A stretch of 64,000 nucleotides of DNA from Candidatus Omnitrophota bacterium (GCA_028716065.1 JAQUQN010000001.1:13266-77265), one strand, 5' to 3'. Shown: positions 4,860 through 64,000, counted from the stretch's first letter. The notes: generated by a model from the letters alone, not told the origin. A program made the numbers and translations.

Positions 4860-5924
4860 ATGGCTCATGACCTGAAAAAACTTTTAAAGGAGATGGTTGA
4901 AAAAAACGCCTCGGACGTTCACATAACGGTCCATTCTCCTATAAGGATGAGGATAGATGAAAAACTCATCTCCATAGATAATCATGACCTAACACCCGAA
5001 GAGACGAAGGAGATATCTTACAGCATCCTGAATAAACAGCAGATAGAGAGGTTTGAGAATGAGCTTGAACTTGACATGTCCTTCGGCCTTGAGGGCGTGA
5101 GCCGTTTCAGGGTCAACATATTCAAACAGAGAGGCTGTATAGGATGTTCCATAAGATTGATCCCCTATGAGATATGGACCTTCGACCAGTGCGGACTACC
5201 CGTCGATGTGGTGACCAATCTTTGCAATAAACCGAAGGGGCTGGTCCTCATAACCGGCGAGACGGGAAGCGGAAAATCCACGAGCCTGGCCTCGATGATA
5301 GACTGGATAAACAAACACAAGGCATGCCACATAATAACCGTGGAAGACCCCATAGAGTTTGTCCATAATAATAAGCAGTCGATCGTCGATCAACGCGAGG
5401 TGTACAGCGATACCTATTCGTTTTCGGCGGCCCTGAAACATGTGTTGAGACAGGATCCCGATGTCATACTGATAGGCGAGATGAGGGACCTGGAGACGAT
5501 AGAGTCCGCTTTGATAATCGCCGAAACGGGACACCTGGTATTGGCGACGCTGCATACTTCCGACTGCGTCCAGACAATAAACAGGATCATAGATGTCTTC
5601 CCGTCGCATCAGCAGCAGCAGATAAGGACCCAGCTCTCATTCGTTCTAATAGGGGTTTTGTCGCAGCAATTGATACCCAAGATAAAAGGCCCCGGCCGCA
5701 TCCTCGCGACGGAAGTATTGATAGTAAACCCGGCCGTCAGAAGCCTGATAAGAGAGACGAAGATACATCAGCTCTATTCCGTGATACAGACATCGCAGAG
5801 AGAGGGCATGAAGACGATGAATCAGGCTTTGTACGAACTCTATCAGAAAAAACTCATATCCTATGAAGAGGCCTTCGCGAGATCGACGGATCCGGATGAC
5901 CTCTCGAGGATCTTTAAAAGGTAA
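4860..5924 (+). CDS. pilT: Type IV pilus retraction ATPase PilT
   Basis: Walker A GETGSGKST, the PilT-specific AVRSLIRE motif, and a length of about 354 aa. The AAGGAG RBS lies 6 nt upstream of ATG 4860. The gene is tightly packed after the GGDEF gene. Confidence 0.85.
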   Translation: MAHDLKKLLKEMVEKNASDVHITVHSPIRMRIDEKLISIDNHDLTPEETKEISYSILNKQQIERFENELELDMSFGLEGVSRFRVNIFKQRGCIGCSIRLIPYEIWTFDQCGLPVDVVTNLCNKPKGLVLITGETGSGKSTSLASMIDWINKHKACHIITVEDPIEFVHNNKQSIVDQREVYSDTYSFSAALKHVLRQDPDVILIGEMRDLETIESALIIAETGHLVLATLHTSDCVQTINRIIDVFPSHQQQQIRTQLSFVLIGVLSQQLIPKIKGPGRILATEVLIVNPAVRSLIRETKIHQLYSVIQTSQREGMKTMNQALYELYQKKLISYEEAFARSTDPDDLSRIFKR

Positions 5925-5933
5925 GATATAGAT

Positions 5934-6383
5934 ATGATTCCCATAAGGCGAATAGTCTCCAAACAACTGGGTGAGCTTCTTCTTGAAAGGAATATAATAA
6001 ATAAGGCCCAGCTCGAGAAGGCCCTTCAGATACAGAAGGAAAAAGGCGGGCTGATAGGGCAGGTGCTTGTCATGCTGGGTTACGCCACCGAAGAACAGAT
6101 AGCCCAGGCCCTTACCGTACAGTATGGGTTTCCGTACCTGCCGCTCGATAACTATGAGATAAATACCGAAACCATCAAGATAATCTCGGAAAATGTCGCA
6201 AAACAATATAATCTGATAGCGATAGACAAGATAGGCGAACTCATGACCATCGCGATGTCGAACCCGTTGAATTATCAGGCCATCGAAGATATAGAGATGA
6301 TCACCAAGTGCAAGGTCCAGGTATTTGTGAGCACGATGACAGATATCAATAACGCGATAAAAAAATATTATACCAAGAGATAG
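5934..6383 (+). CDS. Stand-alone GspE/MshE N-terminal (T2SSE_N/MshEN-like) domain protein; putative c-di-GMP receptor
   Basis: 149 aa matching the N-terminal domains of the two downstream PilB proteins. Contains the MshEN-type motif QLGELLLERNIINKAQLEKALQIQ (RLGxxLxxxGxIxxxxLxxxLxxQ pattern). Confidence 0.65.
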   Translation: MIPIRRIVSKQLGELLLERNIINKAQLEKALQIQKEKGGLIGQVLVMLGYATEEQIAQALTVQYGFPYLPLDNYEINTETIKIISENVAKQYNLIAIDKIGELMTIAMSNPLNYQAIEDIEMITKCKVQVFVSTMTDINNAIKKYYTKR

Positions 6384-8123
6384 ATGATAGCTACATTAAG
6401 AGAACGCCTGACGAAGATACTTATCGAGAAGAAACTCGTAAAAGAGAAAGACCTCTCGAACGCCCTTGCCGCCCAGAAGGAAAGAGGGGGGTCCTTAAGC
6501 GACATACTCGTCGGCATGGGCCTTGTCTCCAAGGGCGACCTCATGATAACCCTGAGCCAGGAACTCGGTATCCCTCCGATAAATCTTTCCAGATGCAAGG
6601 TAGACCCGCAGGTGATCAAATTGATACCGAAGAAGACAGCCAAGCATTATAATATCCTGCCCATATCCAAGATGGGAGGGACCCTTACCGTTGCCGTGTC
6701 CGATCCGCTGAATATACTGGCGATCGACGATATAAAGACGCTTACCGGATTTAAGATAAATCTTGCGATAACCACCGACAAGGATATCAGGGACGCCATC
6801 GGGCAATATTATGAAGAGACGGCGTATATCGCAATCGAAAAGATCGTAGAGGGCATGCAGGAGGAATCGGATATAAAGATGATCGAAGCGCACGAAGGCG
6901 AGTCATCGGTTGCTTCATCGGAATTGTTGAAACTGACCCAGGAAGCGCCTGTCGTGAAGATCACCAATCTCATCCTTTCCGAAGCCGTCAGCCTGAGGGC
7001 AAGCGATATACTCATCGAACCCACCGATAACGCGCTTCGTATAAGATACAGGGTCGACGGTATCCTGCAGGAGGCCGAGAAACATCCGCCCAAAGTGCTG
7101 CATGGCGCTATAATCTCCCGCCTGAAAGTAATGTCCACTCTGGATATCGCCGAGCGCCGCCTGCCGCAGGACGGAAGGTTCAAGATAAAATTACACGGCC
7201 GCATCGTGGACTTCAGGGTATCGGTCCTGCCTTCAAGCAAGGGCGAAAAGGTCGCGTTGAGGATCCTGGACAAGTCACAGGCCATGCTCAACATAGATTC
7301 ACTCGGGTTCGATAAAAGGTCAGTGGACGAGATAAAACGATGCACGACAAGGCCGCATGGCATGATATTGATATGCGGGCCTACCGGCTGCGGAAAGACG
7401 ACGACCCTATATTCTATTCTCAATCACATAAATTCTCCCGAAGACAATGTCGTTACAGTAGAAGATCCGGTGGAATATCTCATAGAAGGCGTGAACCAGG
7501 TCACATCCAGGCCGGATATAGGGCTGACATTTGCCGGGGCATTAAGGTCGATCCTGAGACAGGATCCCGATATCATCATGATCGGCGAGATAAGGGATCT
7601 CGAGACGGTCGACATTGCCATAAAGGCCGCTTTGACGGGGCATCTCGTCCTGAGCACTCTTCACACCACGACTGCTCCCGGTTCGATAATAAGACTGGTT
7701 AACATGGGAGTGGAACCTTTTCTCATGACATCATCCCTTATCATGGTAGGCGCGCAGAGGCTCGTGAGAAAGATATGCCCGAATTGCAAGGAGCCGCATG
7801 AGTTGAGTGACGAGGTTCTGAAAAAACTTAAAATAAAACAGTCCGGTAAAAAAGCTGTATTCTATAGAGGCAAGGGATGCAATGCGTGTTTAAATACCGG
7901 TTATAAAGGGCGTGTCGGGCTCATAGAGGTGCTCGTCTTAAGCCCGTCTATCAGGGCTCTCATTCTGGAGGGTGCGCAGGAATACAGAATAATGGATCAG
8001 GCCAGGCGTGAAGGCATGATGAGCTTGAGAGAAAACGGTTTACAGGCCGCGCTGTACGGGATAACGACCCTGGACGAGGTTTTGCGCGTGACTGTAGGTG
8101 ACCAGGAGATAGAGGCGAAATAG
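6384..8123 (+). CDS. pilB: Type IV pilus assembly ATPase PilB/GspE, paralog 1
   Basis: N-terminal T2SSE_N domain, Walker A GPTGCGKTTT, Asp/His boxes, and a tetracysteine motif (CPNCKEP...CNAC). Confidence 0.85.
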   Translation: MIATLRERLTKILIEKKLVKEKDLSNALAAQKERGGSLSDILVGMGLVSKGDLMITLSQELGIPPINLSRCKVDPQVIKLIPKKTAKHYNILPISKMGGTLTVAVSDPLNILAIDDIKTLTGFKINLAITTDKDIRDAIGQYYEETAYIAIEKIVEGMQEESDIKMIEAHEGESSVASSELLKLTQEAPVVKITNLILSEAVSLRASDILIEPTDNALRIRYRVDGILQEAEKHPPKVLHGAIISRLKVMSTLDIAERRLPQDGRFKIKLHGRIVDFRVSVLPSSKGEKVALRILDKSQAMLNIDSLGFDKRSVDEIKRCTTRPHGMILICGPTGCGKTTTLYSILNHINSPEDNVVTVEDPVEYLIEGVNQVTSRPDIGLTFAGALRSILRQDPDIIMIGEIRDLETVDIAIKAALTGHLVLSTLHTTTAPGSIIRLVNMGVEPFLMTSSLIMVGAQRLVRKICPNCKEPHELSDEVLKKLKIKQSGKKAVFYRGKGCNACLNTGYKGRVGLIEVLVLSPSIRALILEGAQEYRIMDQARREGMMSLRENGLQAALYGITTLDEVLRVTVGDQEIEAK

Positions 8124-8126
8124 AAT

Positions 8127-9842
8127 ATGGCCGAATCTTTTAAAAATAAACTCATAGAAATTCTTATCAAAAGCAAGGGCCTGAAGGAATCAGACCTCAA
8201 TAAGGCGCTCGAGACCCAGAAGAAGTCCGGCGGGAGCCTTAGCAAGATAATGGTAGACAACGGGTTCATCACGCAGAAGTCATTGATGCTCGTCTTGAGC
8301 CAGCAGCTGAGCATTCCTCCCATCAACCTATCCAAATTCAAGATCAACAAGGAAGTCCTCGGCCTAATACCTGAGAAAATGGCAAGGCAGTATTCGCTCA
8401 TACCCATATCAAAGATCGGGAACGTCCTTACGGTAGCGATGGCGGATCCGCTGAATATCTTCGCCCTGGATGACCTGAAGATGATAACGAAATTCAGGAT
8501 AGATCCGGCAATATCCACCGAGAATGATATAAGGGAAGCCATAGATAATTATTACGGGCTCCATGCCCAGGACATATCGAAGGTATTTGAAGAGGCGCCC
8601 ACCGCGGATGTTGAGCTGGTGGAAGAAGAGCGTGTGGACGTGAGCGAGGCCACGGAAGAGAGCCAGAAGGCCCCGATAGTCAAGGTGGTAAATCTGATAC
8701 TGGACGAGGCCCTCAAGAAACGGGCGAGCGATATTCATATCGAACCTTGCGAGAATTTTTTGAAAGTGAGATACAGGATAGACGGCAGCCTTCATGATAT
8801 TCTCACGCTTCCCAAGAGCAATCAGAACGCCGTCCTGGCCAGGCTCAAGATAATGTCGAGGCTCGATATCACCGAGACGCGCCTTCCGCAGGATGGAAGG
8901 TTCATGATAAATTTCGAAGGCAAGCCGATAGATTTCAGGGTATCCGTCCTGCCGGTAGTTTTCGGAGGAAAGGTCGTGTTGAGGGTCCTGGATAAATCCA
9001 GCCTGAGCATCGGGCTGGAAAAGTTAGGATTTTTACCGGGGCCGCTGGCCACGTTCAAGACCGCGCTTGAAAGGCCTTATGGGATGATACTCGTTACGGG
9101 TCCTACGGGAAGCGGAAAGTCGACCACATTATATTCCATCATCAACCAGCTTAACAAACCCCAGCGCAACATAATCACCCTGGAAGATCCGGTCGAATAT
9201 GAACTGGACGGTATCACGCAGATACCGGCACGGCCGGAGATAGGCTTGACTTTCGCCAACGGCCTGCGTTCGGTGCTCAGGCAAAGTCCCGATATCGTGA
9301 TGGTGGGCGAGATCAGGGATTTTGAGACGGCAGATATAGCCATAAAGGCTTCTTTGACGGGACAGTTGATATTGAGTACGCTCCATACAAATGATTCTGC
9401 CGGAGCGATCACCAGGCTCATCGACATGGGTGTGGAGCCGTTCCTGGCCGCTTCCAGCCTCGTGTTGCTGACCGCTCAAAGGCTGATGAGAAAGATATGC
9501 CCGAGCTGTAAGACCGAAGAAGGTGTCCCGGCAAATGTCCTAGAACGCATAGGGTTGAAACATCAGGAATTGATAAAAAAAGGGACCAGGAAGTTCTATA
9601 AAGGAGCGGGTTGCGCAAGATGCAACAAGACCGGATATTATGGAAGGATCGGCATACTGGAGGCCTTCCTTGTCGATGACCACGTAAGGGACATGATAAT
9701 GAAAAAGGTTTCGAGCGACGACATAAAGGATTACGCCGTCAAAGAACTGGGCATGAAGACATTGAGAGACAACGCGGTGGAAAATTTCATGAATGGTCTC
9801 ACGACGCTCGAAGAAGTTTTCAGGGTTACCTCGGAGGATTAG
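8127..9842 (+). CDS. Type IV pilus assembly ATPase PilB/GspE, paralog 2
   Basis: Same architecture as paralog 1, with Walker A GPTGSGKSTT and CPSCK...CARC. Confidence 0.85.
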   Translation: MAESFKNKLIEILIKSKGLKESDLNKALETQKKSGGSLSKIMVDNGFITQKSLMLVLSQQLSIPPINLSKFKINKEVLGLIPEKMARQYSLIPISKIGNVLTVAMADPLNIFALDDLKMITKFRIDPAISTENDIREAIDNYYGLHAQDISKVFEEAPTADVELVEEERVDVSEATEESQKAPIVKVVNLILDEALKKRASDIHIEPCENFLKVRYRIDGSLHDILTLPKSNQNAVLARLKIMSRLDITETRLPQDGRFMINFEGKPIDFRVSVLPVVFGGKVVLRVLDKSSLSIGLEKLGFLPGPLATFKTALERPYGMILVTGPTGSGKSTTLYSIINQLNKPQRNIITLEDPVEYELDGITQIPARPEIGLTFANGLRSVLRQSPDIVMVGEIRDFETADIAIKASLTGQLILSTLHTNDSAGAITRLIDMGVEPFLAASSLVLLTAQRLMRKICPSCKTEEGVPANVLERIGLKHQELIKKGTRKFYKGAGCARCNKTGYYGRIGILEAFLVDDHVRDMIMKKVSSDDIKDYAVKELGMKTLRDNAVENFMNGLTTLEEVFRVTSED

Positions 9843-11706: not shown

Positions 11707-12180
11707 ATGAAAATTTGTTTTAAATATTATCGTAATGCATTTACCCCGTTAGAGAAAACCACCGATTTTAATCAGTGGTTATATCCGGATAAAGCTAACC
11801 CCGTTAGAAAAGATTTTTCTAAGGCGGTAAAAGAACCGCTAAATTCTCTAACGGGGTTTACGTTAGTTGAAATAATGATCGTTGTTGCCATAATAGCGAT
11901 CATAATAGCGATAGCCCTTCCGAATTATCTCAAAACGAGCACAGTTTCCAAAAAGACCATCTGCATAAATAATCTGAAACAGATAGACGCTGCCATAGAC
12001 CAGTGGGCCATGGAGAACGATATTCCCAAGGGCGCTCAGGCAACGGAAGAAGTCTATGATTATGTAAACGGCTCCAGGATAACTTGTCCGTCAGGAGGTG
12101 TATATACGTTACATTCGGTGGGAAGCAAGCCGCAGGTCACATGCAGTTTGGAAAATGAGGGGCATAAACTTCCGGAATGA
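11707..12180 (+). CDS. Second pilin-like protein with an unusually long 52-aa leader
   Basis: The mature part, G|FTLVEIMIVVAIIAIIIAIALPNY..., is homologous to pilA. ATG 11707 is the only in-frame start before it. Palindromic-element half-sites are embedded in the leader-coding DNA. Confidence 0.65.
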   Translation: MKICFKYYRNAFTPLEKTTDFNQWLYPDKANPVRKDFSKAVKEPLNSLTGFTLVEIMIVVAIIAIIIAIALPNYLKTSTVSKKTICINNLKQIDAAIDQWAMENDIPKGAQATEEVYDYVNGSRITCPSGGVYTLHSVGSKPQVTCSLENEGHKLPE

Positions 12181-21941: not shown

Positions 21942-22915
21942 TGTTTATAGATGAGGTCAGAATATTCGTCAAGGCCGGCGACGGCGGCGACGGATGCGAC
22001 AGCTTCTACCGCGACAGGTTCAACAGGTGGGGCAGGCCCGATGGAGGTTATGGCGGTAAAGGCGGGGATATAGTATTCGCGGCGGATGAAAACGTCCAGA
22101 CGCTACTCGATTTTCAATACAGGCAGCATTTCAAGGCCCAGCGAGGCGGCCACGGCAGCTCCAATCATAAAAAAGGCAAAAGCGGAGAGGATCTTCATAT
22201 CAAAGTCCCGCCAGGTACATTGATAAAAGACGCCGATAATGACCTTCTTTTACGGGAACTTTTAAGGCCCGGTGATTCCGTGATCATAGCAAGGGGCGGG
22301 GCCGGAGGCAAGGGAAATTCAAAGAATTATCCGGCCGATCTCGGAGTAAAGGGCGAAGAAAAGATATTGTTCCTTGAACTCAAACTGATAGCCGATGCGG
22401 GAATAATCGGTTATCCAAACGCCGGAAAATCCACTCTCGTATCGAAGATATCAAGCGCCAAACCAAAAATAGCCAATTATCCATTTACCACAAAAGAACC
22501 GGTGCTTGGAGTGGTGAGACTCTATGATAGCGCGTCATTTGTCATCGCTGAGATACCGGGTTTGATAGAGGGCGCGCACAGGGGCAAGGGCCTCGGAGAT
22601 AAATTTTTAAGACACATAGAAAGGACGAAGGTCCTTGTTCATCTGATAGACGCCTCCGCTTGCGATGGCCGTTCTCCAGGCGAGGACTATGTGAAATTGA
22701 ACAAGGAACTCGAACTTTACAGCAAAGCGCTTGCCAAGAAGACCCAGTTCATAGTATTGAATAAAAGCGATCTGCCCACAGCCAGGGAGAATATCAAAAT
22801 ATTCAAGAAGAATTTCCCCAGGAAGAAGATATTCACGGTATCCGCTTTGAACGGCGAAGGCATAAAGGAGCTCCTCTCCGCCATTCATAAAAAATTAAAA
22901 GGCAAGAGCCAATGA
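21941..22915 (+). CDS. obg: GTPase Obg
   Basis: Glycine-rich Obg fold (GDGGDG..., GGxGGxGG) followed by a G domain. Confidence 0.9.
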   Translation: MFIDEVRIFVKAGDGGDGCDSFYRDRFNRWGRPDGGYGGKGGDIVFAADENVQTLLDFQYRQHFKAQRGGHGSSNHKKGKSGEDLHIKVPPGTLIKDADNDLLLRELLRPGDSVIIARGGAGGKGNSKNYPADLGVKGEEKILFLELKLIADAGIIGYPNAGKSTLVSKISSAKPKIANYPFTTKEPVLGVVRLYDSASFVIAEIPGLIEGAHRGKGLGDKFLRHIERTKVLVHLIDASACDGRSPGEDYVKLNKELELYSKALAKKTQFIVLNKSDLPTARENIKIFKKNFPRKKIFTVSALNGEGIKELLSAIHKKLKGKSQ

Positions 22916-24027
22916 GCGCGAAAAAGATCAGAAGGCTGGTAATAAAGATCGGAACAAAGGTCCTGACATCCGCCGACAAGACGCTGGACAGAGAGCGGAT
23001 CAAGGAGATCGCCGAACAGGTCTCAACACTTAAAGATAGGGGTATGGATGTGATGCTCGTGACCTCGGGCGCGATCGGCGCCGGCATGTCCATGCTTGGT
23101 TTCAAGAAAAGGCCCGTGAAGCTGGAGGAGCTTCAGGCGTCGGCATCCGTAGGACAGAATCGGCTCATGCACGTCTACAGCGAATCTTTCAGGGCGAAAG
23201 GGTATGCCGCCGGCCAGATACTACTCACGCAAGAAGATTTCAATGACAGGAGAAGGTACCTAAATATCAAGTATACCATCGAGAGCCTTTTGAAGAATAA
23301 GGCGGTACCGATAATAAATGAGAACGATACGGTCTCGACCGAAGAGATAAGATGCGGGGACAATGACCGGCTCGCGGCCCTGGTGGCGGATCTCTGCGGC
23401 GCGGATAAACTCATAATATTGACGGATGTGGACGGCCTGATCGGCGAAGACGGAAAGATAGTAAATGTCGTTAGTGTCTTTACGCCCAAGGTGTATAAAC
23501 TTGCCCGCGCGGTCAGTTGCGACATGGGGACCGGAGGGATGGCCACCAAGCTGGAGTCCGCCGAAAGAGTCACGCAGGCAGGCATAGAGTGCGTCATAGC
23601 GAACGGCAGGAAGAAAGGCAATATAATAAAGATAATCGAAGGCGAAGATATCGGGACGACGTTCAAGAGCGCTAGCGTGAAGATATTGGCCAGGAAGAGG
23701 TGGATAGCATTTTCCTCCAGGCCCAAAGGGGCTCTTCATGTGGATGAGGGCGCGAAAGAGGCGCTATTGAGCGGTAATAAGAGCCTTCTCGCATCAGGCG
23801 TTCTGGGCTCAAACGGGAATTTCGCATCCGGCGATGTCGTGAAGGTGGTCGATAAAGATTCCAGGGAGATCGCAAGGGGAGTCGTTAATTATTCATCGTC
23901 GGAGATAGCCAAGATAAAGGGTCTGAAGACAGGAGAGTTCAAGGCATTGGTAGCCCGCAAGGGCCGCGATGAGGTGATACATAAGGACGACCTGGTGATT
24001 TTATCCGCCTTCGCAATCAACACGTAA
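22912..24027 (+). CDS. proB: Glutamate 5-kinase with PUA domain
   Basis: AAK-family kinase motifs plus a C-terminal PUA domain. proA follows. Confidence 0.9.
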   Translation: MSAKKIRRLVIKIGTKVLTSADKTLDRERIKEIAEQVSTLKDRGMDVMLVTSGAIGAGMSMLGFKKRPVKLEELQASASVGQNRLMHVYSESFRAKGYAAGQILLTQEDFNDRRRYLNIKYTIESLLKNKAVPIINENDTVSTEEIRCGDNDRLAALVADLCGADKLIILTDVDGLIGEDGKIVNVVSVFTPKVYKLARAVSCDMGTGGMATKLESAERVTQAGIECVIANGRKKGNIIKIIEGEDIGTTFKSASVKILARKRWIAFSSRPKGALHVDEGAKEALLSGNKSLLASGVLGSNGNFASGDVVKVVDKDSREIARGVVNYSSSEIAKIKGLKTGEFKALVARKGRDEVIHKDDLVILSAFAINT

Positions 24028-24068
24028 TAGGCTAGGTGCTTCGGCGGATGTCACACTAAAGCAGGTAG
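24001..24068 (+). repeat. Copy A of a 68-nt duplicated segment (proB 3' end plus the proB-proA spacer)
   Basis: 62 of 68 positions (91%) match copy B at 25993-26060; the mismatches are two clustered 2-nt changes. Confidence 0.7.
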
Positions 24069-24070
24069 GC

Positions 24071-25324
24071 ATGAAGAGAGAAGATATTAAAAAATTATGC
24101 CGGAGGGCTAAGGCGGGATCCAGGAAGCTTGCCCTTCTTGACTCAGAGACGAAGAGCCGTATCCTGATAGCCATGTCCAAGGGACTGATAAGAGGGCTGC
24201 CGACGATACTCAAGGAGAACGAAAAGGATGTGGCCTCCGCCAGAAAAAGGTCTTTACCCGGCGCCCTGATAGACAGGTTGACGCTCAATCCATCCCGGAT
24301 AAGATCGATGGCCGATTCGTTGTTGAAGATAGCGGCTCTCAAAGACCCCGTGGGAGAGGTAACCGAGACCGTAAAAAGGCCCAACGGGCTTATTATCAAA
24401 AAGGTGAAAGTTCCCATAGGCGTGATACTCATCATTTATGAATCGAGGCCCAACGTGACCAGCGACTGCATAGGGCTGTGCCTGAAATCCGGGAACTCTG
24501 TCATCTTAAGAGGCGGCAGCGAAGCCATAAGGTCCAATATCGCCATATTCGATGCCCTGAACAGGGCGGCCCTCAGGCGCGGTCTTCCCGAGGATGCCAT
24601 GACGATGATCAAGGATACCGATAGAAAGCTGGTGAACGAGCTGTTAAAACAGGAGGGCTTAATAGACCTGGTCATGCCGCGCGGAGGAGAGTCGCTCATA
24701 CGCGAAGTTTCAGCAAATTCCCGCATACCAGTTATCAAGCATTATAAAGGGGTATGTCATACCTACATCGACAAGGACGCGGATCTAAAGATGGCCGAGG
24801 ATATCGCCTTCAACGCGAAGGTCCAGCGGCCCGGTGTCTGTAACGCCATGGAGACGATGCTGGTGCACAAGGATGCGTCAAGGGACTTCCTGCCGGTGAT
24901 GATAGAGCGGTTTAAACACGCCGGCGTAGAGATAAGAGGCTGTCCGAAGACCAGAAAGATAGTCAAAGGAATCCTAGCGGCCAGGGAGGATGACTGGTAC
25001 GCCGAATATCTTGATCTCATACTGTCCGTCAAGGTCGTCGAAGATATCGACGAGGCTATCGAACATATAATGCGTTACGGCTCGTATCATTCGGACACGA
25101 TCGTCACGGATAATGAGGCTGCTGCATCGAAATTCCTTAAAGAGGTAGACTCGGCTTGCGTATATGTCAATGCGTCCACGCGTTTTACGGACGGAGGTGA
25201 GTTTGGTAAAGGGGCCGAGATAGGAATATCGACCGATAAGATACACGCGCGCGGCCCGATGGGGTTAGAGGAGCTCACGTCGTATAAATATCTGGTTTAT
25301 GGGAACGGACAGATCAGGAAATGA
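24071..25324 (+). CDS. proA: Gamma-glutamyl phosphate reductase
   Basis: Aldehyde-dehydrogenase-family ProA signature. Position after proB. Confidence 0.9.
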   Translation: MKREDIKKLCRRAKAGSRKLALLDSETKSRILIAMSKGLIRGLPTILKENEKDVASARKRSLPGALIDRLTLNPSRIRSMADSLLKIAALKDPVGEVTETVKRPNGLIIKKVKVPIGVILIIYESRPNVTSDCIGLCLKSGNSVILRGGSEAIRSNIAIFDALNRAALRRGLPEDAMTMIKDTDRKLVNELLKQEGLIDLVMPRGGESLIREVSANSRIPVIKHYKGVCHTYIDKDADLKMAEDIAFNAKVQRPGVCNAMETMLVHKDASRDFLPVMIERFKHAGVEIRGCPKTRKIVKGILAAREDDWYAEYLDLILSVKVVEDIDEAIEHIMRYGSYHSDTIVTDNEAAASKFLKEVDSACVYVNASTRFTDGGEFGKGAEIGISTDKIHARGPMGLEELTSYKYLVYGNGQIRK

Positions 25325-25331
25325 GTTTACG

Positions 25332-25901
25332 ATGCGAATAGGAATATTGGGAGGCACGTTCAATCCGATACACATAGGGCACCTGATCCTTGCGGAAGAG
25401 GCCTGTTTCAAGCTTAAGCTCGACAAGGTGATATTCGTGCCGACATTCATTCCTCCACACAAAGAGATAGCGCCCAGCGTAAAGCCAAAGGACCGCCTTA
25501 AGATGGTAAAGTTGGCCATAGAAAAGAACCCTGCCTTTGAGGTATCCAGGTATGAGATAGACTCAAAGAAGAAATCGTATTCGATAGATACTTTAAAGGA
25601 GTTCAGGAAGAAATACGGAGAGGCAGCTCAACTATTCTTCATAACGGGGTCCGATTCGCTCAAGGACCTTTTTTCATGGAAAGACGTGAATGACATTTTC
25701 AAGATATCCAAGTTCATAGTGGCCAATAGGCCCGGCTACCCGGTCAGGGAAGTTCCGAAGGAAGTCGAGACGGTTGTGATAACGCCCATTGAGGTCTCTT
25801 CGGAAGATATCAGAAAGAGGCTCAAAGAGGCAAGGTCGATAAGGTATCTCGTTCCCGAAAAAGTTAGGAATTATATCATCAACCGCAATCTATATAAGTA
25901 A
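25332..25901 (+). CDS. nadD: Nicotinate-nucleotide adenylyltransferase
   Basis: MRIGILGGTFNPIHIGHL (HxGH motif). ATG 25332 follows the proA stop. The ORF track's 25299 start overlaps proA. Confidence 0.85.
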   Translation: MRIGILGGTFNPIHIGHLILAEEACFKLKLDKVIFVPTFIPPHKEIAPSVKPKDRLKMVKLAIEKNPAFEVSRYEIDSKKKSYSIDTLKEFRKKYGEAAQLFFITGSDSLKDLFSWKDVNDIFKISKFIVANRPGYPVREVPKEVETVVITPIEVSSEDIRKRLKEARSIRYLVPEKVRNYIINRNLYK

Positions 25902-25902
25902 A

Positions 25903-25931
25903 CCCCGTTAGAAAAATCTTTTCTAACGGGG
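25903..25931. repeat. 29-nt perfect palindromic element CCCCGTTAGAAAAATCTTTTCTAACGGGG (copy 1)
   Basis: 13-bp arms around a 3-nt centre, starting 2 nt after the nadD stop. An identical copy lies at 35616-35644, and split half-sites lie in the pilA2 leader (11747-11857). Confidence 0.65.
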
Positions 25932-25951
25932 TAAAAGAGATCCTTATTCCC

Positions 25952-25980
25952 TTGACCGTATGCGTTTCGTAGTGTATAAT
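25952..25980 (+). promoter_or_regulatory. Strong sigma70 promoter (TTGACC-N17-TGTATAAT) driving the structured leader and the small zinc-ribbon gene
   Basis: TTGACC 25952-25957, a 17-nt spacer, extended -10 TGnTATAAT at 25973-25980. Confidence 0.5.
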
Positions 25981-25992
25981 TTTATAAAATTT

Positions 25993-26060
25993 TATCCGCC
26001 TTCGCAATCAACGTGTAATAGGCTAGGTGCTTCGGCGGATGTCACACTGAAGCGGGTAGG
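25993..26060 (+). repeat. Copy B of the 68-nt duplicated segment
   Basis: See copy A at 24001-24068. The differences are two clustered 2-nt changes. Confidence 0.7.
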
Positions 26061-26062
26061 CG

Positions 26063-26152
26063 GATACCCCCACTGTTAGATTTGCGAAGCAAATCTGGTG
26101 GGGGTTGGCAGATACCCCCACTGTTAGATTTGCGAAGCAAATCTGGTGGGGG
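26063..26152 (+). repeat. Two tandem 42-nt imperfect-palindrome (hairpin) units separated by 6 nt
   Basis: Unit gataCCCCCACtgttAGATTTGCgaaGCAAATCTggtgGGGGG at 26063-26104 and 26111-26152, period 48. A further GTAA-tetraloop hairpin lies at 26166-26183. Confidence 0.7.
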
Positions 26153-26211
26153 TAAAGAAAGGAATCACGGGCGTAAGCCCGTGGGGTTCCATGAAAGAGG
26201 AGGTGATTTAA

Positions 26212-26355
26212 ATGGCAGAGACGGGATATTGCGTAAAATGTAAGACGAAGAAGGAGATGAAGGACACAGAGAAAGTCACGATGAAGAACAAGAGACAAGC
26301 GATGAAGGGTAAGTGCGTGACCTGCGGTACAGGCATGTATAAGATAATGAAATAG
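26212..26355 (+). CDS. Small zinc-ribbon protein (47 aa, CxxC...CxxC; DUF5679-like), not in the ORF track
   Basis: MAETGYCVKCKTKKEMKDTEKVTMKNKRQAMKGKCVTCGTGMYKIMK. A strong GAGGAGGTGA RBS lies 7 nt upstream. Confidence 0.55.
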   Translation: MAETGYCVKCKTKKEMKDTEKVTMKNKRQAMKGKCVTCGTGMYKIMK

Positions 26356-26399
26356 CAGCGAGAAGAGTAAAACAGCTTCATTAAAAACGGAGAGGTGCT

Positions 26400-26798
26400 A
26401 TAGAAGCGAAGAGAAAAGCAGGGGCTATAGCCCGGGCTGCCTCCAGCAAAAAGGCGCTTGATATAGTCATTATAGATATGCGGAAGATGCCGGGTATCTG
26501 CGACTTTTTTTTGATAGCGAGCGGCACGTCAACAACGCAGGTCAGGGCTATATCGGACAACATACAGAAAAAGCTCAAAGAATCCGGCGGAAAGCTTTAT
26601 CATATAGAAGGCGAAAAAGAAGCATTGTGGGTTCTTTTGGACTACGGCGATGTCGTCGGTCATGTCTTTTATGACCCGACACGCCGTTTTTATGATTTGG
26701 AGCGGCTATGGGCCGATGCCCCTCAGCAACATTTTAAAGAGAGAGTAGGGAAGAAGATTCGTCATGCCAAAAGGAAAAAGAAAAAAAGGCGCTCATGA
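26400..26798 (+). CDS. rsfS: Ribosome silencing factor RsfS (Iojap); start uncertain
   Basis: ALDIVIIDMRK...FFLIASGTSTTQVRAISDNI is the RsfS core. The homology extends upstream of the track's ATG 26478 as far as the in-frame stop at 26382. No canonical start codon lies in that stretch, and the 26400 start used here is a non-canonical ATA codon chosen only for its position after a GGAGAGG RBS. Confidence 0.6.
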   Translation: MEAKRKAGAIARAASSKKALDIVIIDMRKMPGICDFFLIASGTSTTQVRAISDNIQKKLKESGGKLYHIEGEKEALWVLLDYGDVVGHVFYDPTRRFYDLERLWADAPQQHFKERVGKKIRHAKRKKKKRRS

Positions 26799-27888
26799 CC
26801 TTCACAGGGTAGAGAGAACCTTAAGGAGCCGTTTAGACGAACTCACCGCTCTATACGAGGTATCCAAGTCCATAACCTCAGCCGTGAATCTGGATAAGAT
26901 GCTCAGCCTTATAGTGAGCAAGGTTGCCAGCATCATGAAGGCTGAGGTATGCATGATCCATCTCATAAACAAGGGGGACCTGAGGCTCAGGACCTCCTAT
27001 GGCATAACCGCGCGTCTGGCTGAGCTGAAGAATCCCCTGCCGGTAGACCATACCGTCGTCGACCAGGTCATAAGGACGAAGATGCCTGTAAGGGTCGAGG
27101 ACCTGCAGAAACATTCTAAAAATATATTTTTCCATGTAGCCAGGAAGGGCCGCCTTCACTCGCTCCTAATAGTGCCTTTGATAGAAAAGGGAGAGCTGAT
27201 AGGCGTGCTCAGCGTCATGAGCAAGCGCCGCGCGGCATATAGCATATCCGACGAAAAAGAATTGACGCTCTTCGCAAGCCAGGCCGCGGTGGCCATAGAG
27301 AATGCCAGGCTCTTTGAAGAAGTGAGGATCAATTATCTGAACACGATGAGGCTCCTGGCATGCGTGATAGACGCCAAGGATACATATACCGAGGACCATT
27401 CCGAGCGCGTCATGCGTTCGGCACTGGCGATCGCGGACTATCTGAGCCTGTCCGCAAAGCAGAGGTCGGTCATAAGGTACGCGAGCCTTCTTCATGACAT
27501 AGGAAAGATAGGCATAGACATGAGTGTCCTGCGCAAGCCGACGACCCTTAGCAAAGAAGAATGGCGGCAGATGAAACAGCATCCAAAGATAGGCGCGGAT
27601 ATCATCAAACGCGCCGGATTTCTCGATGATCTTGTACCGGCGATCCTGTATCATCATGTCAAATATTCCGGCGGCGGTTATCCGATCACGAAAAAGACTA
27701 AAGAGGACCTGCCGGTAGAGGCCAGGGTGCTGGCGGTGGCCGACGCCTATGAGGCGATGGTGACGGACAGGCCTTACAGGCGCCGCATGACGAAAGACCA
27801 GGCGATAGCGGAACTGAAGAGGTGTTCCGGTTCGCAGTTTGACCCGAAAGTGGTCAACGCTCTATTAAGATATTTAACCAATACCTAG
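26764..27888 (+). CDS. GAF-HD-GYP c-di-GMP phosphodiesterase
   Basis: GAF domain plus HD (LLHDIGK) and GYP (GGGYP) motifs. Confidence 0.8.
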   Translation: MPKGKRKKGAHDLHRVERTLRSRLDELTALYEVSKSITSAVNLDKMLSLIVSKVASIMKAEVCMIHLINKGDLRLRTSYGITARLAELKNPLPVDHTVVDQVIRTKMPVRVEDLQKHSKNIFFHVARKGRLHSLLIVPLIEKGELIGVLSVMSKRRAAYSISDEKELTLFASQAAVAIENARLFEEVRINYLNTMRLLACVIDAKDTYTEDHSERVMRSALAIADYLSLSAKQRSVIRYASLLHDIGKIGIDMSVLRKPTTLSKEEWRQMKQHPKIGADIIKRAGFLDDLVPAILYHHVKYSGGGYPITKKTKEDLPVEARVLAVADAYEAMVTDRPYRRRMTKDQAIAELKRCSGSQFDPKVVNALLRYLTNT

Positions 27889-35417: not shown

Positions 35418-35615
35418 AGGTAGTTATAGAGTTATTTTGGCCTTACGCTAACGAAGTCGCTAATTTGCTTTAGGAGGTAATTAAGTACTTAGCAAAATTT
35501 TACGGCTCAGGGCCCATGGCCTCATGGCCACCTAAAGTATGCTCTGCTACATCGGCCTTAAAGGGGACCCCTTTTAGCGAAGAAGCCACCCTCGACCCGG
35601 ACATAAAATATCTTA

Positions 35616-35644
35616 CCCCGTTAGAAAAATCTTTTCTAACGGGG
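35616..35644. repeat. 29-nt palindromic element, copy 2 (identical to 25903-25931)
   Basis: Exact match CCCCGTTAGAAAAATCTTTTCTAACGGGG. Confidence 0.65.
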
Positions 35645-35664
35645 TGAACTTGGGGAACTGGGGT

Positions 35665-60580: not shown

Positions 60581-63500
60581 GAGGTGACCCATGTTACTAC
60601 CAAACAAATTGAAGTTTCTTTTCAGGACGATATCGGTTTGCGTCATCTTTCTCTTTCTCTGGCAGCAGATAACGTGGGCGGCAGGCGCTGATTTATTGAA
60701 TAACACCGTAACTACCACCGAAACCACCTCTGACGGAATGACGCCGGAGGCTCTAAAATCCAGCCAGAATACGGTAGAGTCGATCATAACCACAAAGAAC
60801 GCGATAGAGACATCGAAGGCTTCCTCGACCCCTTCTTATACGTATACTTATTATAAAAGCGGTCTCATCCAGTCCGTCACCTTAAGTTCGCCCGACCAGT
60901 TCGGCAATATCTATTATTATTATCTCAATGAGAACTGGAATGGCCAGGGCCACGGCAGGATCTTCAAAACCAAACGTCAGGACCCATTAGATGGAGAGCT
61001 TTCCTATATATACTATTACTATGGGAAGACGGACAGGATAAGAATTCGCAGGGGCTATGCCACCTCCACCTGGACCAAGTTGTCATCCAACTACTATTAC
61101 AACAACAACGCCGCAAACAGGCTATCATACAGGCAGCTTGCGGCCCCCGATTCTCAAGGCTTTATCTACTACCACTATATAGATGAAGACTTCAACGGCC
61201 AGGGATACGGAAGAGTCGATAAGACAAGGCGTAAAGTTGCCTTAAACGGGGAACTCTCTTATACCTATATATATTATGCCAACTCCGACAGGATCCAGAC
61301 CGCCAGCGCCTATGGTACGGCTTCATGGACCAAACTTCGTTCTACATACACTTATTATAATAATGACAGTAATAGAATAGAGTCGAATACCCTCATAACC
61401 GCCGATAAATCGGGCAATGTCTATTATCACTACCTGGATGAGAATTGGCAGTCCCAGGGTTATGGCAGGGTGGATAAGAAGGTTCGTAAAACCGCCGATT
61501 TGAGCGACGCCAAGTCATATACGTTTATCTATCATCCCGGCATGGACAAAGTGAAGTACGAATATGATTATAGAAACAGCGACTTCACGTCATTGTTCGT
61601 AATAAAGGAGTATAACACGGCCGGAGTTATTATAAAAACGACGCAGGTTTCCGACGGAACTTATACCTTTTACGCCTCAGGCCGATTCGAATCCGTTACC
61701 TATGCTGTTCCGGATGCCTCCGGTAACACCTACTATCACTACTTGGATGAGGACTGGAATGGCCAGGGCTATGGCAGGGTAGACAAGTCCAGAAGACAGA
61801 CCGCATCGAATGGAGAATTAACCTACGCTTATATATATTATGCTGATGGCACGGGAAGACTCAAAGAGAAGAGGTCTTATTCAGATAACAATTGGACGAG
61901 CCTCGTATCCATTTATACCTATTATAACGATTCCAACGGAAGGCTCCAATCAAAGTATGACCCCTCTACAGGCATAACAACCGCTTATTACAATGATTCA
62001 AATAACAGGATAGAGTCAAGAACCTTGGCCACGCCCGATGCTGGAGGTAATATCTATTACCATTATCTGAATGAGGATTGGAATAATCAGGGATATGGAA
62101 AGATAGATAGGCAAGATGCGTCGAATGGCGATTTCGTCACTTTCGAATACTGGTCATCCGGGAATAAAAAGGTGGAGGCTTTCTTTGAACAAGACAGTAC
62201 CTGGCAGAAGACGATCGAATATTGGGAAGATGGTATAACCTTGCGCCGGTACGAGATTGCCGATTATAATCCCAGCCCGACGGGAATAGAAGTCTGTTAT
62301 GATTATGATAATCAAGGGCAACTCATAAAGAAGACATTCGATAACGGTGATTTCATTACCTACGAATACTGGTCTAGCGGAAATGAGAAACAGGAAGCAT
62401 TTTTCGATGTAAACTGGAACTGGCAAAGGACGATTGAGTATTGGGAGGATGGTAGCACCTTACACCACCAGTGGTTTGCCGATTACGATCCTACACCTAC
62501 CAGATACCTTGTTTATTGTGAGTACGATGACCTCGGCAGAGTAATAAATAATAGTTTCGATAATGACGATCGCCTCCTGATTGAATACTGGTTGTCGGGT
62601 AATAAAAAACAAGACGCATTTTTTAAGGAAAACTGGACCTGGCAATATACGATCGAATACTGGGATAACGCTACTTCCATTAAACACTATGAGTGGATCG
62701 CTGATGCAAATACCGGCACCGCAGGTGATATTACTAACTACGAATACGACGAACAGGAAAGGGTGGTGGCCGAAAGATTTGATACTGGTGATTTTGTCCT
62801 TATTGAATATTGGTCTTCCGGCAATAAAAAACAGGACGCATTTTTTAAACAAGATTGGACATGGCAATATACCATCGAATACTGGGATAGCACTACCTCT
62901 ATTAAACATTATGAGTGGATCACCGACGCAAATCCAGGCGCAGAAGGAGATGTAGTCTATTGCGAACATAATTCCACAGGCGCTGCGATAAAGCTGACAT
63001 ATGATAACGGTGAAACATGCGAATACGATGATCAGGGCAGAGTTACAAAGAAAACGCTTCCGAACGGCGATTTTATTCTCACCGAATATTGGTCCTCCGG
63101 CAACAAGAAAATAGATGAATTCTTCAGCGCAGAAAATGTCTGGCAGAAGACGATCAAATACTGGGATGACGCTAATAACTATATTGAATCCGTATCATTA
63201 GCTATACCCGATACCGATGGTAATAGCTATTACCACTATCTAGATGAGAATTGGCAAAATCAGGGATATGGAAAGATAGATAGGTTGCGGAGATCTGATG
63301 CCGATGAGGAAGGCGCTATCGGCTATGAGTACACTTATTATTATAATGGCATGACAACGGGGGATTCGGAGAGTGACGGACAAAATGAGATTATAGCCGA
63401 TTTCGGCTATGACGGCCTTTGGATATATAGAAATAACGAATGGACCCGTCTTTCTACTTATGATGCTGATGCCTGTAGCATAGCAGACGCCACAGGTGAC

Positions 63501-64000
63501 GACAAGAACGATATAATTGTAGATTTTGGAAGCAAGGGTTTCTTTGTATATTCCAACAACGGCTGGACACAACTCTCAACTTATGATGCTGAAGTTTTTA
63601 CAATAGCAGATGCCACTGGTGACGGTAAGAACGACATAATCGTAGATTTTGGAAGCAAGGGTTTCTTTGTATATTCCAACAACAGCTGGACACTGATCTC
63701 AACTTATGATGCTGAAGTTTTTACAATAGCAGATGCAACAGGCGACGGCAAGAACGATATAATCGTAGATTTTGGGAGCAAGGGTTTCTTTGTATATTCC
63801 AACAACGGCTGGACACAGCTTTCCCAATGGGATGTTGAAATATTCAGTATAGCAGACGTCACGGGAGATGATAAGAACGAAATAATAGGAGATTTCGGAG
63901 ACAATGGTTTTTGGGTCTATTCCAATGGTTCATGGAATGAACCTTCTATCTGGGATGCTGAGGCCTTTACAGTGACGGAGGTTACCGGCGACGGTAAAAA
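60581..64000 (+). CDS. Giant secreted repeat protein (adhesin-like): signal peptide, six YYHYLDENWNGQGYGR-type modules, five EYWSSGNKK...WQ.TIEYWD modules, then FG-GAP/VCBS-like repeats; continues past the window end
   Basis: Open in one frame from ATG 60581 to position 64000 with no stop. Absent from the ORF track because no stop is reached. Hydrophobic signal-like N-terminus. Confidence 0.8.

What the first reader, a model, noticed from the sequence alone, without database searches (positions are those of the whole stretch)
25952..26355. Strong promoter plus a 230-nt repeat-built structured leader in front of an unannotated 47-aa zinc-ribbon gene
Downstream of a near-consensus extended -10 promoter lie, in order: a 68-nt segment that duplicates the proB 3' end and the proB-proA spacer (62/68 positions match 24001-24068, 91%); two tandem 42-nt strong hairpin units (7-bp plus 8-bp stems, period 48); and a GTAA-tetraloop hairpin. 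A strong RBS and a CxxC...CxxC mini-protein that is too short for the ORF track follow. The density of structure suggests a cis-regulatory RNA (riboswitch or attenuator) or an sRNA. The duplication of a proline-operon junction is unexplained. It may reflect a shared regulatory element, or a segmental duplication or rearrangement scar.
Basis: seen in the sequence. Interest (0 to 1): 0.6.

Follow-up and report, generated by a model that had tools for sequence, protein, structure and literature searches.

The report
Private repeat insertions in a gene leader
The promoter, ribosome-binding site and 47-aa zinc-ribbon gene are real and conserved across Omnitrophota, but the long hairpin-rich leader is a genome-specific insertion of repeat DNA, also inserted at the proB/proA junction, and not a conserved regulatory RNA.

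Summary
The window comes from a Candidatus Omnitrophota MAG. The 47-aa ORF is a DUF5679 (PF18930) zinc ribbon. It is highly conserved across the phylum and is the first gene of a conserved DUF5679-rsfS-argS arrangement. In all 79 orthologous loci scored, a strong sigma-70-type promoter sits upstream, and the median leader is 40 nt.

The window's 225-nt leader is the longest and most structured of the set. If 197 nt (25995-26191) are removed, the leader aligns collinearly with the 21-47-nt leaders of the relatives it was aligned with. The "duplicated proB end" is not proB sequence. All 14 relatives checked end proB at ...LVI(L/I)* next to the proA start, most with a TTATGA stop/start overlap. 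The window carries a 68-nt insertion there, which adds 7 codons to proB and breaks the overlap. Both reconstructed empty sites read ATTTTA^TGAA.

Neither the 67-nt module nor the 48-nt hairpin unit occurs elsewhere in the window, the 88 related loci, or the viral, metagenome, phage and plasmid collections. Rfam gives no credible hit, there is no U-tract terminator, and the SD is not sequestered.

Verdict: lineage-specific insertion of palindromic repeat DNA that rides in a 5' UTR. It is ordinary in kind. The shared 10-nt target is a mild curiosity.

The parts
25902..25932 (.). Perfect 14-bp palindrome ACCCCGTTAGAAAAATCTTTTCTAACGGGGT immediately after the nadD stop. It belongs to a small palindrome family in this window and is terminator-like in shape, but has no U-tract on the + strand.
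   Evidence: -20.7 kcal/mol, z = -6.1. Other copies lie at 11798-11828 and 35613-35645.
25952..25980 (+). Sigma-70-type promoter TTGACC-17-TATAAT (11/12). It is conserved in position and sequence in orthologous loci. The predicted TSS is about 25987.
   Evidence: all 79 loci score >=9/12 upstream of DUF5679; collinear alignment with close relatives. The TSS is inferred, not measured.
25995..26061 (+). 67-nt module (TCCGCC...GGTAGGC), leader copy. It is the first part of the 197-nt leader insertion (25995-26191).
   Evidence: 69/73 identity including the shared ATTTTA flank. Absent from all relatives. Weakly structured. Its last 28 nt resemble a collapsed hairpin unit (shuffle test 14/2000).
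24004..24071 (+). 68-nt insertion of the same module at the proB/proA junction, between ATTTTA and TGAAGAGAG. It adds the codons SAFAINT* to proB and separates the ancestral overlapping stop/start (ttATGA).
   Evidence: 14 relatives end proB at ...LVI(L/I)* overlapping or abutting the proA ATG. Reconstruction.
26062..26157 (+). Two tandem 48-nt units, each a 17-bp bulged hairpin (26066-26105 and 26114-26153) with a GAA loop.
   Evidence: (D10). No other copy in the window, 88 loci, viral or metagenome contigs.
26161..26190 (+). GTAA-tetraloop hairpin GGAAUCACGGGC-GUAA-GCCCGUGggGUUCC, the last module of the insertion.
   Evidence: -19.6 kcal/mol, z = -3.75. Absent from relatives.
26192..26211 (+). 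Ancestral 3' part of the leader, with SD GAGGAGGTGA (26197-26206).
   Evidence: aligns with ...gaaaGGAGGTGAtt..aaATG of relatives. SD unpaired probability about 0.5.
26212..26355 (+). 47-aa DUF5679 zinc-ribbon gene (CxxC...CxxC).
   Evidence: PF18930, 50.4 bits; 788 homologs; 28 of 47 columns invariant; AF2 pLDDT 86, four-stranded zinc ribbon; conserved DUF5679-rsfS-argS order.

Best explanation
The conserved functional unit is simple. A strong constitutive-type promoter, a short unstructured leader of about 30 nt and a perfect Shine-Dalgarno sequence drive a highly conserved 47-aa DUF5679 zinc-ribbon protein, followed by rsfS and argS.

In this genome only, 197 nt of non-coding repeat DNA has been inserted into that leader at ATTTTA^TGAA. 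The insert has three parts:
- a 67-nt module;
- two tandem copies of a 48-nt bulged hairpin;
- a GTAA hairpin.

The same 67-nt module, plus one base, is also inserted at an ATTTTA^TGAA site 2 kb upstream. That site is exactly the ancestral proB-stop/proA-start overlap. The insertion gives proB seven new C-terminal codons and uncouples proA.

The leader insert is a passenger. Because it lies between the conserved promoter and the SD, it must be transcribed as 5' UTR. It leaves the promoter and SD intact and is not predicted to occlude the SD. Any effect is most likely generic, such as altered mRNA half-life or RNase III-type processing at the long helices, rather than ligand- or attenuation-based control.

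Shown here: both insertions relative to all relatives, the identical inferred target, the lack of conservation and the lack of known RNA-family signatures.

Inferred: transcription through the insert, its neutrality, and how it spread. It spread either as a small target-specific non-autonomous element or by microhomology-mediated local copying. The order of events cannot be resolved from two copies.
For: - Orthologous proB/proA junctions: 14 of 14 relatives lack the segment, and 11 of them have overlapping or directly abutting stop/start codons.
- Orthologous leaders: the promoter is conserved in all 79 loci; the median leader is 40 nt; the window is the extreme at 225 nt and -103.5 kcal/mol.
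- After deleting 25995-26191, the window aligns collinearly with the relatives' leaders.
- Both reconstructed empty sites read ATTTTA|TGAA. That 10-mer occurs only once more in 64 kb, against 0.38 expected.
- No other copy of either module exists in the window or 88 loci, viral contigs, JGI metagenome contigs, or phages and plasmids.
- No Rfam family matches and there is no tRNA or tmRNA.
- SD accessibility is unchanged by the insert, and the + strand has no U-tract terminator.
- Independent precedent in the phylum: L010 carries an unrelated insertion of about 210 nt at the same proB/proA junction. It has perfect 11-nt terminal inverted repeats and two tandem G/C hairpins, and it also extends proB by 7 codons.
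- 20 of 79 leaders carry unrelated hairpins. These short spacers therefore repeatedly accept palindromic DNA.
Against: - Only two copies of the 67-nt module and one tandem pair of the hairpin are available. All are within 2 kb in one MAG, so mobility is not demonstrated.
- The rest of the source genome could not be searched.
- The two inserts have different right ends (...GGTAGGCA versus ...GGGGTTCCA). This is awkward for a single transposase-recognised element.
- No target-site duplication longer than 1 nt is seen, and no transposase was found among the 10 small ORFs tested.
- Hairpins close to the SD recur in 20 of 79 lineages, which could instead reflect selection for 5' UTR structure.
- No expression data exist, so an acquired regulatory role in this lineage cannot be excluded.
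Confidence: 0.7

Rival explanations
1. The insert is adaptive 5' UTR structure. The stable hairpins protect or process the mRNA of a very highly expressed gene (a 5' stabiliser or RNase III site), or they act as binding sites for a protein, possibly the basic DUF5679 zinc ribbon itself (autoregulation).
For: Twenty of 79 orthologous leaders carry some stable hairpin, usually ending 1-25 nt before the SD. Two identical bulged hairpins in tandem look like a duplicated binding site. The protein is basic and folds as a zinc ribbon of the kind found in nucleic-acid-binding proteins.
Against: Fifty-nine of 79 lineages, including 8 of the 11 relatives aligned, have no such hairpin. The hairpins that do occur are unrelated in sequence and shape, whereas the protein is nearly invariant. 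The hairpins start about 75 nt from the predicted 5' end, which is not where 5' stabilisers act. The 67-nt module also sits at proB/proA, where no such role applies.
Confidence: 0.15
2. The leader is a genuine cis-regulatory RNA (riboswitch or transcription attenuator), and a related sensor sits in front of proA.
For: Very low folding energy (z = -8.3). A weak alternative hairpin at 26096-26123 is followed by TTAGATTT. The same 67-nt module precedes two different start codons.
Against: No Rfam hit. No homolog of any module in any relative or collection. The 67-nt module itself folds no better than shuffles (z = -0.14). The alternative hairpin (10 bp) competes with a 17-bp hairpin that is transcribed first. 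The SD is not sequestered. The two hairpin units are identical, so there is no covariation to assess.
Confidence: 0.06
3. The promoter drives an independent small RNA made of the repeat modules.
For: A strong promoter is followed by about 200 nt of stable structure.
Against: No intrinsic terminator lies between the promoter and the ORF. In all relatives the same promoter is 21-60 nt from the DUF5679 start and clearly serves that gene.
Confidence: 0.03
4. The inserts or their copy number are artefacts of metagenome assembly.
For: The source is a MAG, and repeats are error-prone in short-read assembly.
Against: The two 73-nt copies differ at 4 positions. The proB copy preserves an open frame with a new stop and an intact proA ATG. 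Both inserts sit at precise, homologous positions relative to intact flanks.
Confidence: 0.04

Closest known systems
MITE-type small insertion elements that land in 5' UTRs (e.g. Neisseria Correia elements; comparison from general knowledge)
   Same: A short non-coding insert, absent from orthologous sites in relatives, placed between a promoter and a start codon and co-transcribed. It forms long hairpins that could be RNase III substrates, and the same short target sequence is used at both sites.
   Different: No target-site duplication. Terminal inverted repeats are seen only as an 8-nt ATCCGCCT/AGGCGGAT pair in the leader copy. Only two copies are known, against hundreds for Correia. The two copies have different right ends.
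REP/BIME palindromes and RAYT (IS200/IS605-like Y1 transposase) systems
   Same: G+C-rich imperfect palindromes with a bulge, arranged in tandem in a transcribed spacer. Insertion 3' of a fixed short sequence without duplication is what single-strand Y1 transposition produces. GTAG/GTTG lies 7 nt 5' of each hairpin foot.
   Different: Not high-copy: no other copy in 64 kb. No RAYT or TnpA was found among the ORFs tested. The GTAG spacing differs from E. coli REPs. The resemblance is drawn from memory and was not tested.
Rickettsia palindromic elements (RPE), which insert into coding sequence
   Same: The proB copy becomes part of the ORF: seven new codons and a new stop.
   Different: It replaces only the last base or so of the gene at the stop/start overlap rather than inserting in-frame inside a protein. 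It is also much shorter.
DUF5679 (Pfam PF18930) small zinc-ribbon proteins
   Same: The 47-aa product is a full-length member (positions 1-40 of the 40-position model, 50.4 bits).
   Different: Nothing. The function of the family is unknown.
Riboswitches and leader attenuators
   Same: A long structured 5' UTR downstream of a strong promoter.
   Different: No conserved aptamer, no expression platform and no conservation in orthologs.

Membership tests
DUF5679 (PF18930) | Score above Pfam's gathering threshold over the full model | tested here: met
   50.4 bits against 27, E=2.5e-13, model positions 1-40 of 40.
DUF5679 (PF18930) | Two CxxC pairs forming a zinc-ribbon fold | tested here: met
   C7, C10, C35 and C38 are invariant in 28 sequences. 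The AF2 model has four strands and pLDDT 86. Metal binding itself was not tested.
Any Rfam RNA family (riboswitch, leader, sRNA) | Covariance-model score at or above the gathering threshold | tested here: not met
   Zero hits at gathering in 64 kb. The best sub-threshold hits are miRNA models and wcaG at 23-25 bits, against thresholds of 41-50.
Riboswitch / cis-regulatory leader (generic) | Structure conserved in front of orthologous genes | tested here: not met
   No homolog of any module in the 88 loci. Leaders of the relatives aligned are 21-47 nt.
Riboswitch / attenuator (generic) | Expression platform: an intrinsic terminator or an SD-sequestering helix | tested here: not met
   No hairpin with a proper U-tract on the + strand; the only candidate is a 10-bp alternative helix followed by TTAGATTT. 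SD unpaired probability is 0.52 with the insert and 0.45 without it.
MITE / small non-autonomous insertion element | Presence/absence polymorphism: empty orthologous sites in relatives | tested here: met
   Fourteen of 14 proB/proA junctions and all orthologous leaders lack it. These relatives are distant, though: nadD identity is <=85%.
MITE / small non-autonomous insertion element | Terminal inverted repeats and a target-site duplication | tested here: inconclusive
   An 8-nt ATCCGCCT...AGGCGGAT pair bounds 25994-26065 in the leader copy only. There is no TSD beyond a single ambiguous A.
MITE / REP (dispersed repeat) | Multiple dispersed copies in the genome | tested here: inconclusive
   Two copies of the 67-nt module 2 kb apart and one tandem pair of the hairpin, with none elsewhere in 64 kb.
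IS200/IS605-derived or RAYT-mobilised element | Insertion 3' of a fixed short target without duplication | tested here: met
   Both copies directly follow ATTTTA, and the inferred empty sites are both ATTTTA^TGAA. The sample is only n=2.
IS200/IS605-derived or RAYT-mobilised element | A cognate Y1 transposase in the genome | not testable with these tools
   None among the 10 small ORFs of the window scanned with Pfam. The remaining ORFs and the rest of the genome were not examined.

The most novel reading that the evidence does not exclude
The 67-nt module, perhaps together with the hairpin units, is a so-far undescribed miniature mobile element of Omnitrophota. It integrates site-specifically at ATTTTA^TGAA without target duplication, by a single-strand Y1-transposase- or RAYT-like mechanism. 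It can rewire compact operons: here it uncouples proB and proA translation and remodels the 5' UTR of one of the phylum's most conserved small genes.
Probability: 0.2. Interest if true: 0.5.

Novelty: new member of a known kind. Interest (0 to 1): 0.25.

Why it matters
Three points, all modest.

- It is a clean example of dense RNA structure next to a strong promoter not implying a regulatory RNA. Comparison with orthologous loci resolves it as inserted repeat DNA.
- The two insertions share a rare 10-nt site. One of them splits an ATGA stop/start overlap that is conserved in relatives. This is a natural experiment on translational coupling and a hint of target-specific mobile DNA in a streamlined, uncultured phylum.
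- The gene behind the leader deserves attention. DUF5679 keeps 74-94% identity across loci where the adjacent RsfS and ArgS are only 35-54% identical. It always has a near-consensus promoter and SD, and it sits directly before the ribosome-silencing factor gene. This pattern suggests an abundant protein bound to a conserved machine such as the ribosome (inference).

Tried and rejected
- **Rfam.** Gathering thresholds on the whole window and E<=10 on 25800-26500 gave nothing credible. ARAGORN on 23500-26800 found nothing.
- **Other copies of the modules.** blastn-short against the window and 80 loci, exact 19-20-mers against viral contigs and JGI metagenome contigs, and blastn against phages and plasmids all came back empty. 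Exact-match scans would miss diverged copies.
- **Reaching the rest of the source MAG.** The window's exact DUF5679 protein and the NCBI nadD call (P0121, 100% identical) are not on record for contig look-up.
- **Closest relatives.** By DUF5679 (98%, 94%, 91%) and by nadD (85-83%) they all have different, shorter leaders. No strain-level relative exists in the collections.
- **Attenuator idea.** Rejected: no U-tract, and the competing helix is weaker and forms later.
- **SD-sequestration idea.** Rejected.
- **Integron attC idea.** GTTAGAT matches GTTRRRY, but the GTT is a bulge, there is no inverse core, and there is no cassette array.
- **Small ORFs in the insert.** The 39-aa ORF at 25960 starts upstream of the -10, and the 53-aa TTG ORF has no SD. 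Both rejected.
- **Literature.** Searches for DUF5679, PF18930 and Omnitrophota MITEs gave no functional information.

Full report
**1. What is in the sequence**

The region lies in a compact run of + strand genes: rng, rplU, rpmA, obg, proB (22912-24027), proA (24071-25324), nadD (25299-25901), the finding, rsfS, an HD-GYP-type gene, argS and mfd. Homologs of both the 47-aa ORF and nadD come from Candidatus Omnitrophota MAGs. One NCBI MAG protein is 100% identical to the window's nadD and sits on an 87.8-kb contig, so that MAG is the likely source.

- **Promoter.** TTGACC-17-TATAAT at 25952-25980, 11/12 matches. It is not a canonical TGn extended -10.
- **Repeat.** 73 nt shared between 23998-24070 and 25989-26061, 69/73 identical.
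- **Tandem units.** Two 48-nt units, each a 17-bp bulged hairpin with z = -4.9 and -5.8.
- **GTAA hairpin.** 26161-26190.
- **SD.** GAGGAGGTGA at 26197-26206.
- **ORF.** 47 aa with CxxC...CxxC at 26212-26355, a full-length DUF5679 / PF18930 member.

The leader as a whole folds far better than shuffles (z = -8.3). That signal comes from the hairpin modules. The 73-nt repeat itself is not unusually structured (z = -0.14 and -2.0).

**2. What is conserved and what is not**

I collected 80 genomic loci encoding DUF5679 from one genome per species. I added eight more loci through the closest DUF5679 and nadD homologs.

| Feature | Result |
|---|---|
| DUF5679 protein | 28 of 47 columns invariant in 28 sequences; 74-94% identity over the 80 loci |
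| Adjacent RsfS and ArgS | 35-49% and about 50% identity outside the nadD-linked subgroup (57-82% and 58-72% within it) |
| Gene order | rsfS follows in 77 of 80 loci, argS in 72 of 80 |
| Upstream gene | nadD in only 20 of 80 loci |
| Promoter | Sigma-70-like site scoring >=9/12 (mostly 10-11/12) in all 79 loci scored |
| Leader length | Median 40 nt from the predicted TSS to the ATG |
| Window leader | 225 nt, -103.5 kcal/mol: the longest and most stable of the set |

Eight of the 11 relatives aligned share the motif cccTTGACc...tagtgTATAAT (L003, L004, L006, L007, L009, L018, L029, L082). The 11 aligned leaders are 21-47 nt.

**3. The leader is an insertion**

If 25995-26191 (197 nt) is deleted, the window reads TATAATTTTATAAAATTTTA|TGAAAGAGGAGGTGATTTAAATG. 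This aligns collinearly, without further gaps, to the relatives' leaders. The closest match is L018...tttaaTGAAAAGGGGGTGATTCAAAATG.

None of the three modules of the insert has a match in any of the 88 loci.

**4. The "proB 3' end" is the same insertion**

In all 14 relatives that keep the proB-proA-nadD synteny, proB ends ...HK(D/N)NLVI(L/I)*. In 11 of them its stop overlaps or directly abuts the proA start, typically as ttATGA. L002 and L007 have short spacers, and L010 has an unrelated insert.

The window reads GTGATTTTA[68 nt]TGAAGAGAG. Removing 24004-24071 restores GTG ATT TTA TGA, that is V-I-L-stop with the overlapping ATG. So the shared segment is not proB sequence copied into the leader. 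It is foreign to both sites. At proB it supplies seven new codons (SAFAINT), a new stop, and a 43-nt gap between that stop and the proA start. This breaks the inferred translational coupling.

**5. A shared target**

Both reconstructed empty sites are ATTTTA^TGAA: proB/proA is ATTTTA|TGAAGAGAG and the leader is ATTTTA|TGAAAGAGG. The 10-mer occurs only once more on either strand of the 64 kb, against 0.38 expected. Two random insertions would not share it.

Two mechanisms fit:

- **(a) A small element with target specificity.** It would insert 3' of ATTTTA without target duplication, as IS200/IS605- or RAYT-type single-strand transposition does. This mechanism is cited from general knowledge and was not tested.
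- **(b) Local copying** between two fortuitously similar sites 2 kb apart, through flanking microhomology.

Against (a):
- The two inserts have different right ends.
- Only these copies are known.
- No transposase was seen among the ten small ORFs checked.

Against (b):
- The 129-nt hairpin block then needs a second event.

The last 28 nt of the 67-nt module (GGCGGATGTCACACTGAAGCGGGTAGGC) align to a hairpin unit with its inner stem deleted (14 of 2000 shuffles score as well). The modules therefore appear related. The order of events is unresolved.

**6. Tests of the regulatory-RNA reading**

- Rfam: no family at gathering in the whole window. At E<=10 only miRNA models and wcaG match the hairpins, at 23-25 bits against thresholds of 41-50.
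- No tRNA or tmRNA.
- No intrinsic terminator on the + strand. The one flagged site (26096-26123) is the 10-bp helix between the two units. It competes with a 17-bp hairpin that is transcribed first, and it is followed by TTAGATTT rather than a U-run.
- The SD is about half-unpaired both with and without the insert (0.52 versus 0.45).
- Exact-word scans for each module found nothing in viral contigs or JGI metagenome contigs. blastn found nothing in phages or plasmids.
- The two hairpin units are identical in their paired parts, so they offer no covariation.

It is not met for the ORF.

**7. A recurrent phenomenon**

Twenty of 79 orthologous leaders carry some hairpin at or below -8 kcal/mol, all of unrelated sequence. 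Fifty-nine carry none.

L010 has an independent insert of about 210 nt at the very same proB/proA junction. It has perfect 11-nt terminal inverted repeats (TGTCCAAATTA/TAATTTGGACA) and two tandem G/C hairpins, and it also extends proB by seven codons.

These short spacers in compact Omnitrophota operons therefore repeatedly acquire palindromic DNA. This fits a passenger or selfish interpretation. It leaves open a generic benefit of 5' UTR hairpins.

**8. The protein**

AlphaFold2 with the 28-sequence alignment gives a four-stranded zinc ribbon (pLDDT 86).

- No PDB relative was found by sequence.
- Foldseek against PDB gave no significant match. The best hits, at E about 0.3-2, are zinc ribbons from large-subunit ribosomal proteins of about 91-105 residues in eukaryotic and archaeal ribosomes. 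From memory of chain labels this is probably eL42. RNA polymerase I subunits and RNase P Rpp21 also appear.
- This supports only "generic nucleic-acid-type zinc ribbon".
- There is no phage or defence signal and no literature on function.

Taken together, the extreme conservation, the near-consensus promoter and SD, and the fixed position before rsfS suggest an abundant translation-associated factor. This is inference.

**9. Verdict**

The interpretation as a riboswitch, attenuator or sRNA is not supported. The best explanation, at about 0.7 confidence, is a lineage-specific insertion of palindromic repeat DNA into the short leader of a conserved, strongly expressed gene. A sister copy of its first module sits at the proB/proA overlap, and both copies are at ATTTTA^TGAA.

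It is a new member of a known kind: small palindromic or MITE-like insertions. Interest is low to moderate. The most novel reading still open is a target-specific miniature mobile element in Omnitrophota, at about 0.2 probability.

Noticed in passing
window 11744-11861, 25902-25932, 35613-35645: A family of near-identical palindromes, ACCCCGTTAGA(A/G)AA...TTCTCTAACGGGGT. One copy follows the nadD stop and one is intergenic. At 11.8 kb an inner copy is nested within an outer pair inside the 5' part of a prepilin-like ORF (11707-12180). There the 3' arm TCTAACGGGGTTTACG encodes S-L-T-G-F-T, the prepilin cleavage motif.
   Followed up: partly
window 26385-26480 (rsfS start): Homology to RsfS of relatives (…AIEAKRKAGAIARAASSKKALDIVIIDM…) extends about 28 codons upstream of the first in-frame ATG (26478). 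There is no ATG, GTG or TTG in that frame after the stop at 26382. An ATA codon at 26400 follows a GGAGAGGTG SD-like sequence. Possible explanations are a non-canonical start, a sequencing error or an N-terminally shortened RsfS.
   Followed up: partly
L010 737-945: An independent MITE-like insertion of about 210 nt at the proB/proA junction of another Omnitrophota genome (RIFCSPLOWO2_01_FULL_45_10). It has 11-nt perfect terminal inverted repeats and two tandem hairpins (CCCTCTCCCCT/AGGGGAGAGGG and TCCTCTCCCCC/GGGGGAGAGGA). It extends proB by ENHSCPN*.
   Followed up: partly
L001-L088, DUF5679-rsfS-argS: DUF5679 is 74-94% identical across loci where the adjacent RsfS (35-49%) and ArgS (about 50%) have diverged strongly. 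The order DUF5679-rsfS-argS is kept in 77 and 72 of 80 loci, whatever lies upstream. This suggests an abundant partner of a conserved machine. One NCBI record names a 49-aa member 'isoleucyl-tRNA synthetase'.
   Followed up: partly
L051, L052, L054 leaders (about 50 nt before the SD): A sub-lineage shares a hairpin (G)CG(C)-TTAACTTAC...GTAAGTTAAGCG(C)T directly before tcATTTAAAGGAGG. Hairpins of other sequence followed by the same (c)tcatt(t)aaagg motif occur in L021, L026, L039 and L074. This could be a locally conserved 5' UTR element unrelated to the window's insert.
   Followed up: no
window 61360-63915: Several families of long direct repeats (periods of 123 nt and about 219-222 nt, 63-87% identity) at the right end of the window. 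They are probably a repeat-domain protein gene (families D1-D4).
   Followed up: no
window 5446-9512: Three paralogous ATPase-like genes in a row (6384-8123, 8127-9842 and upstream) share conserved blocks (families D5 and D8). They lie next to an MshEN-domain ORF and pilin or T2SS-like genes, forming a large type IV pilus / type II secretion cluster.
   Followed up: no
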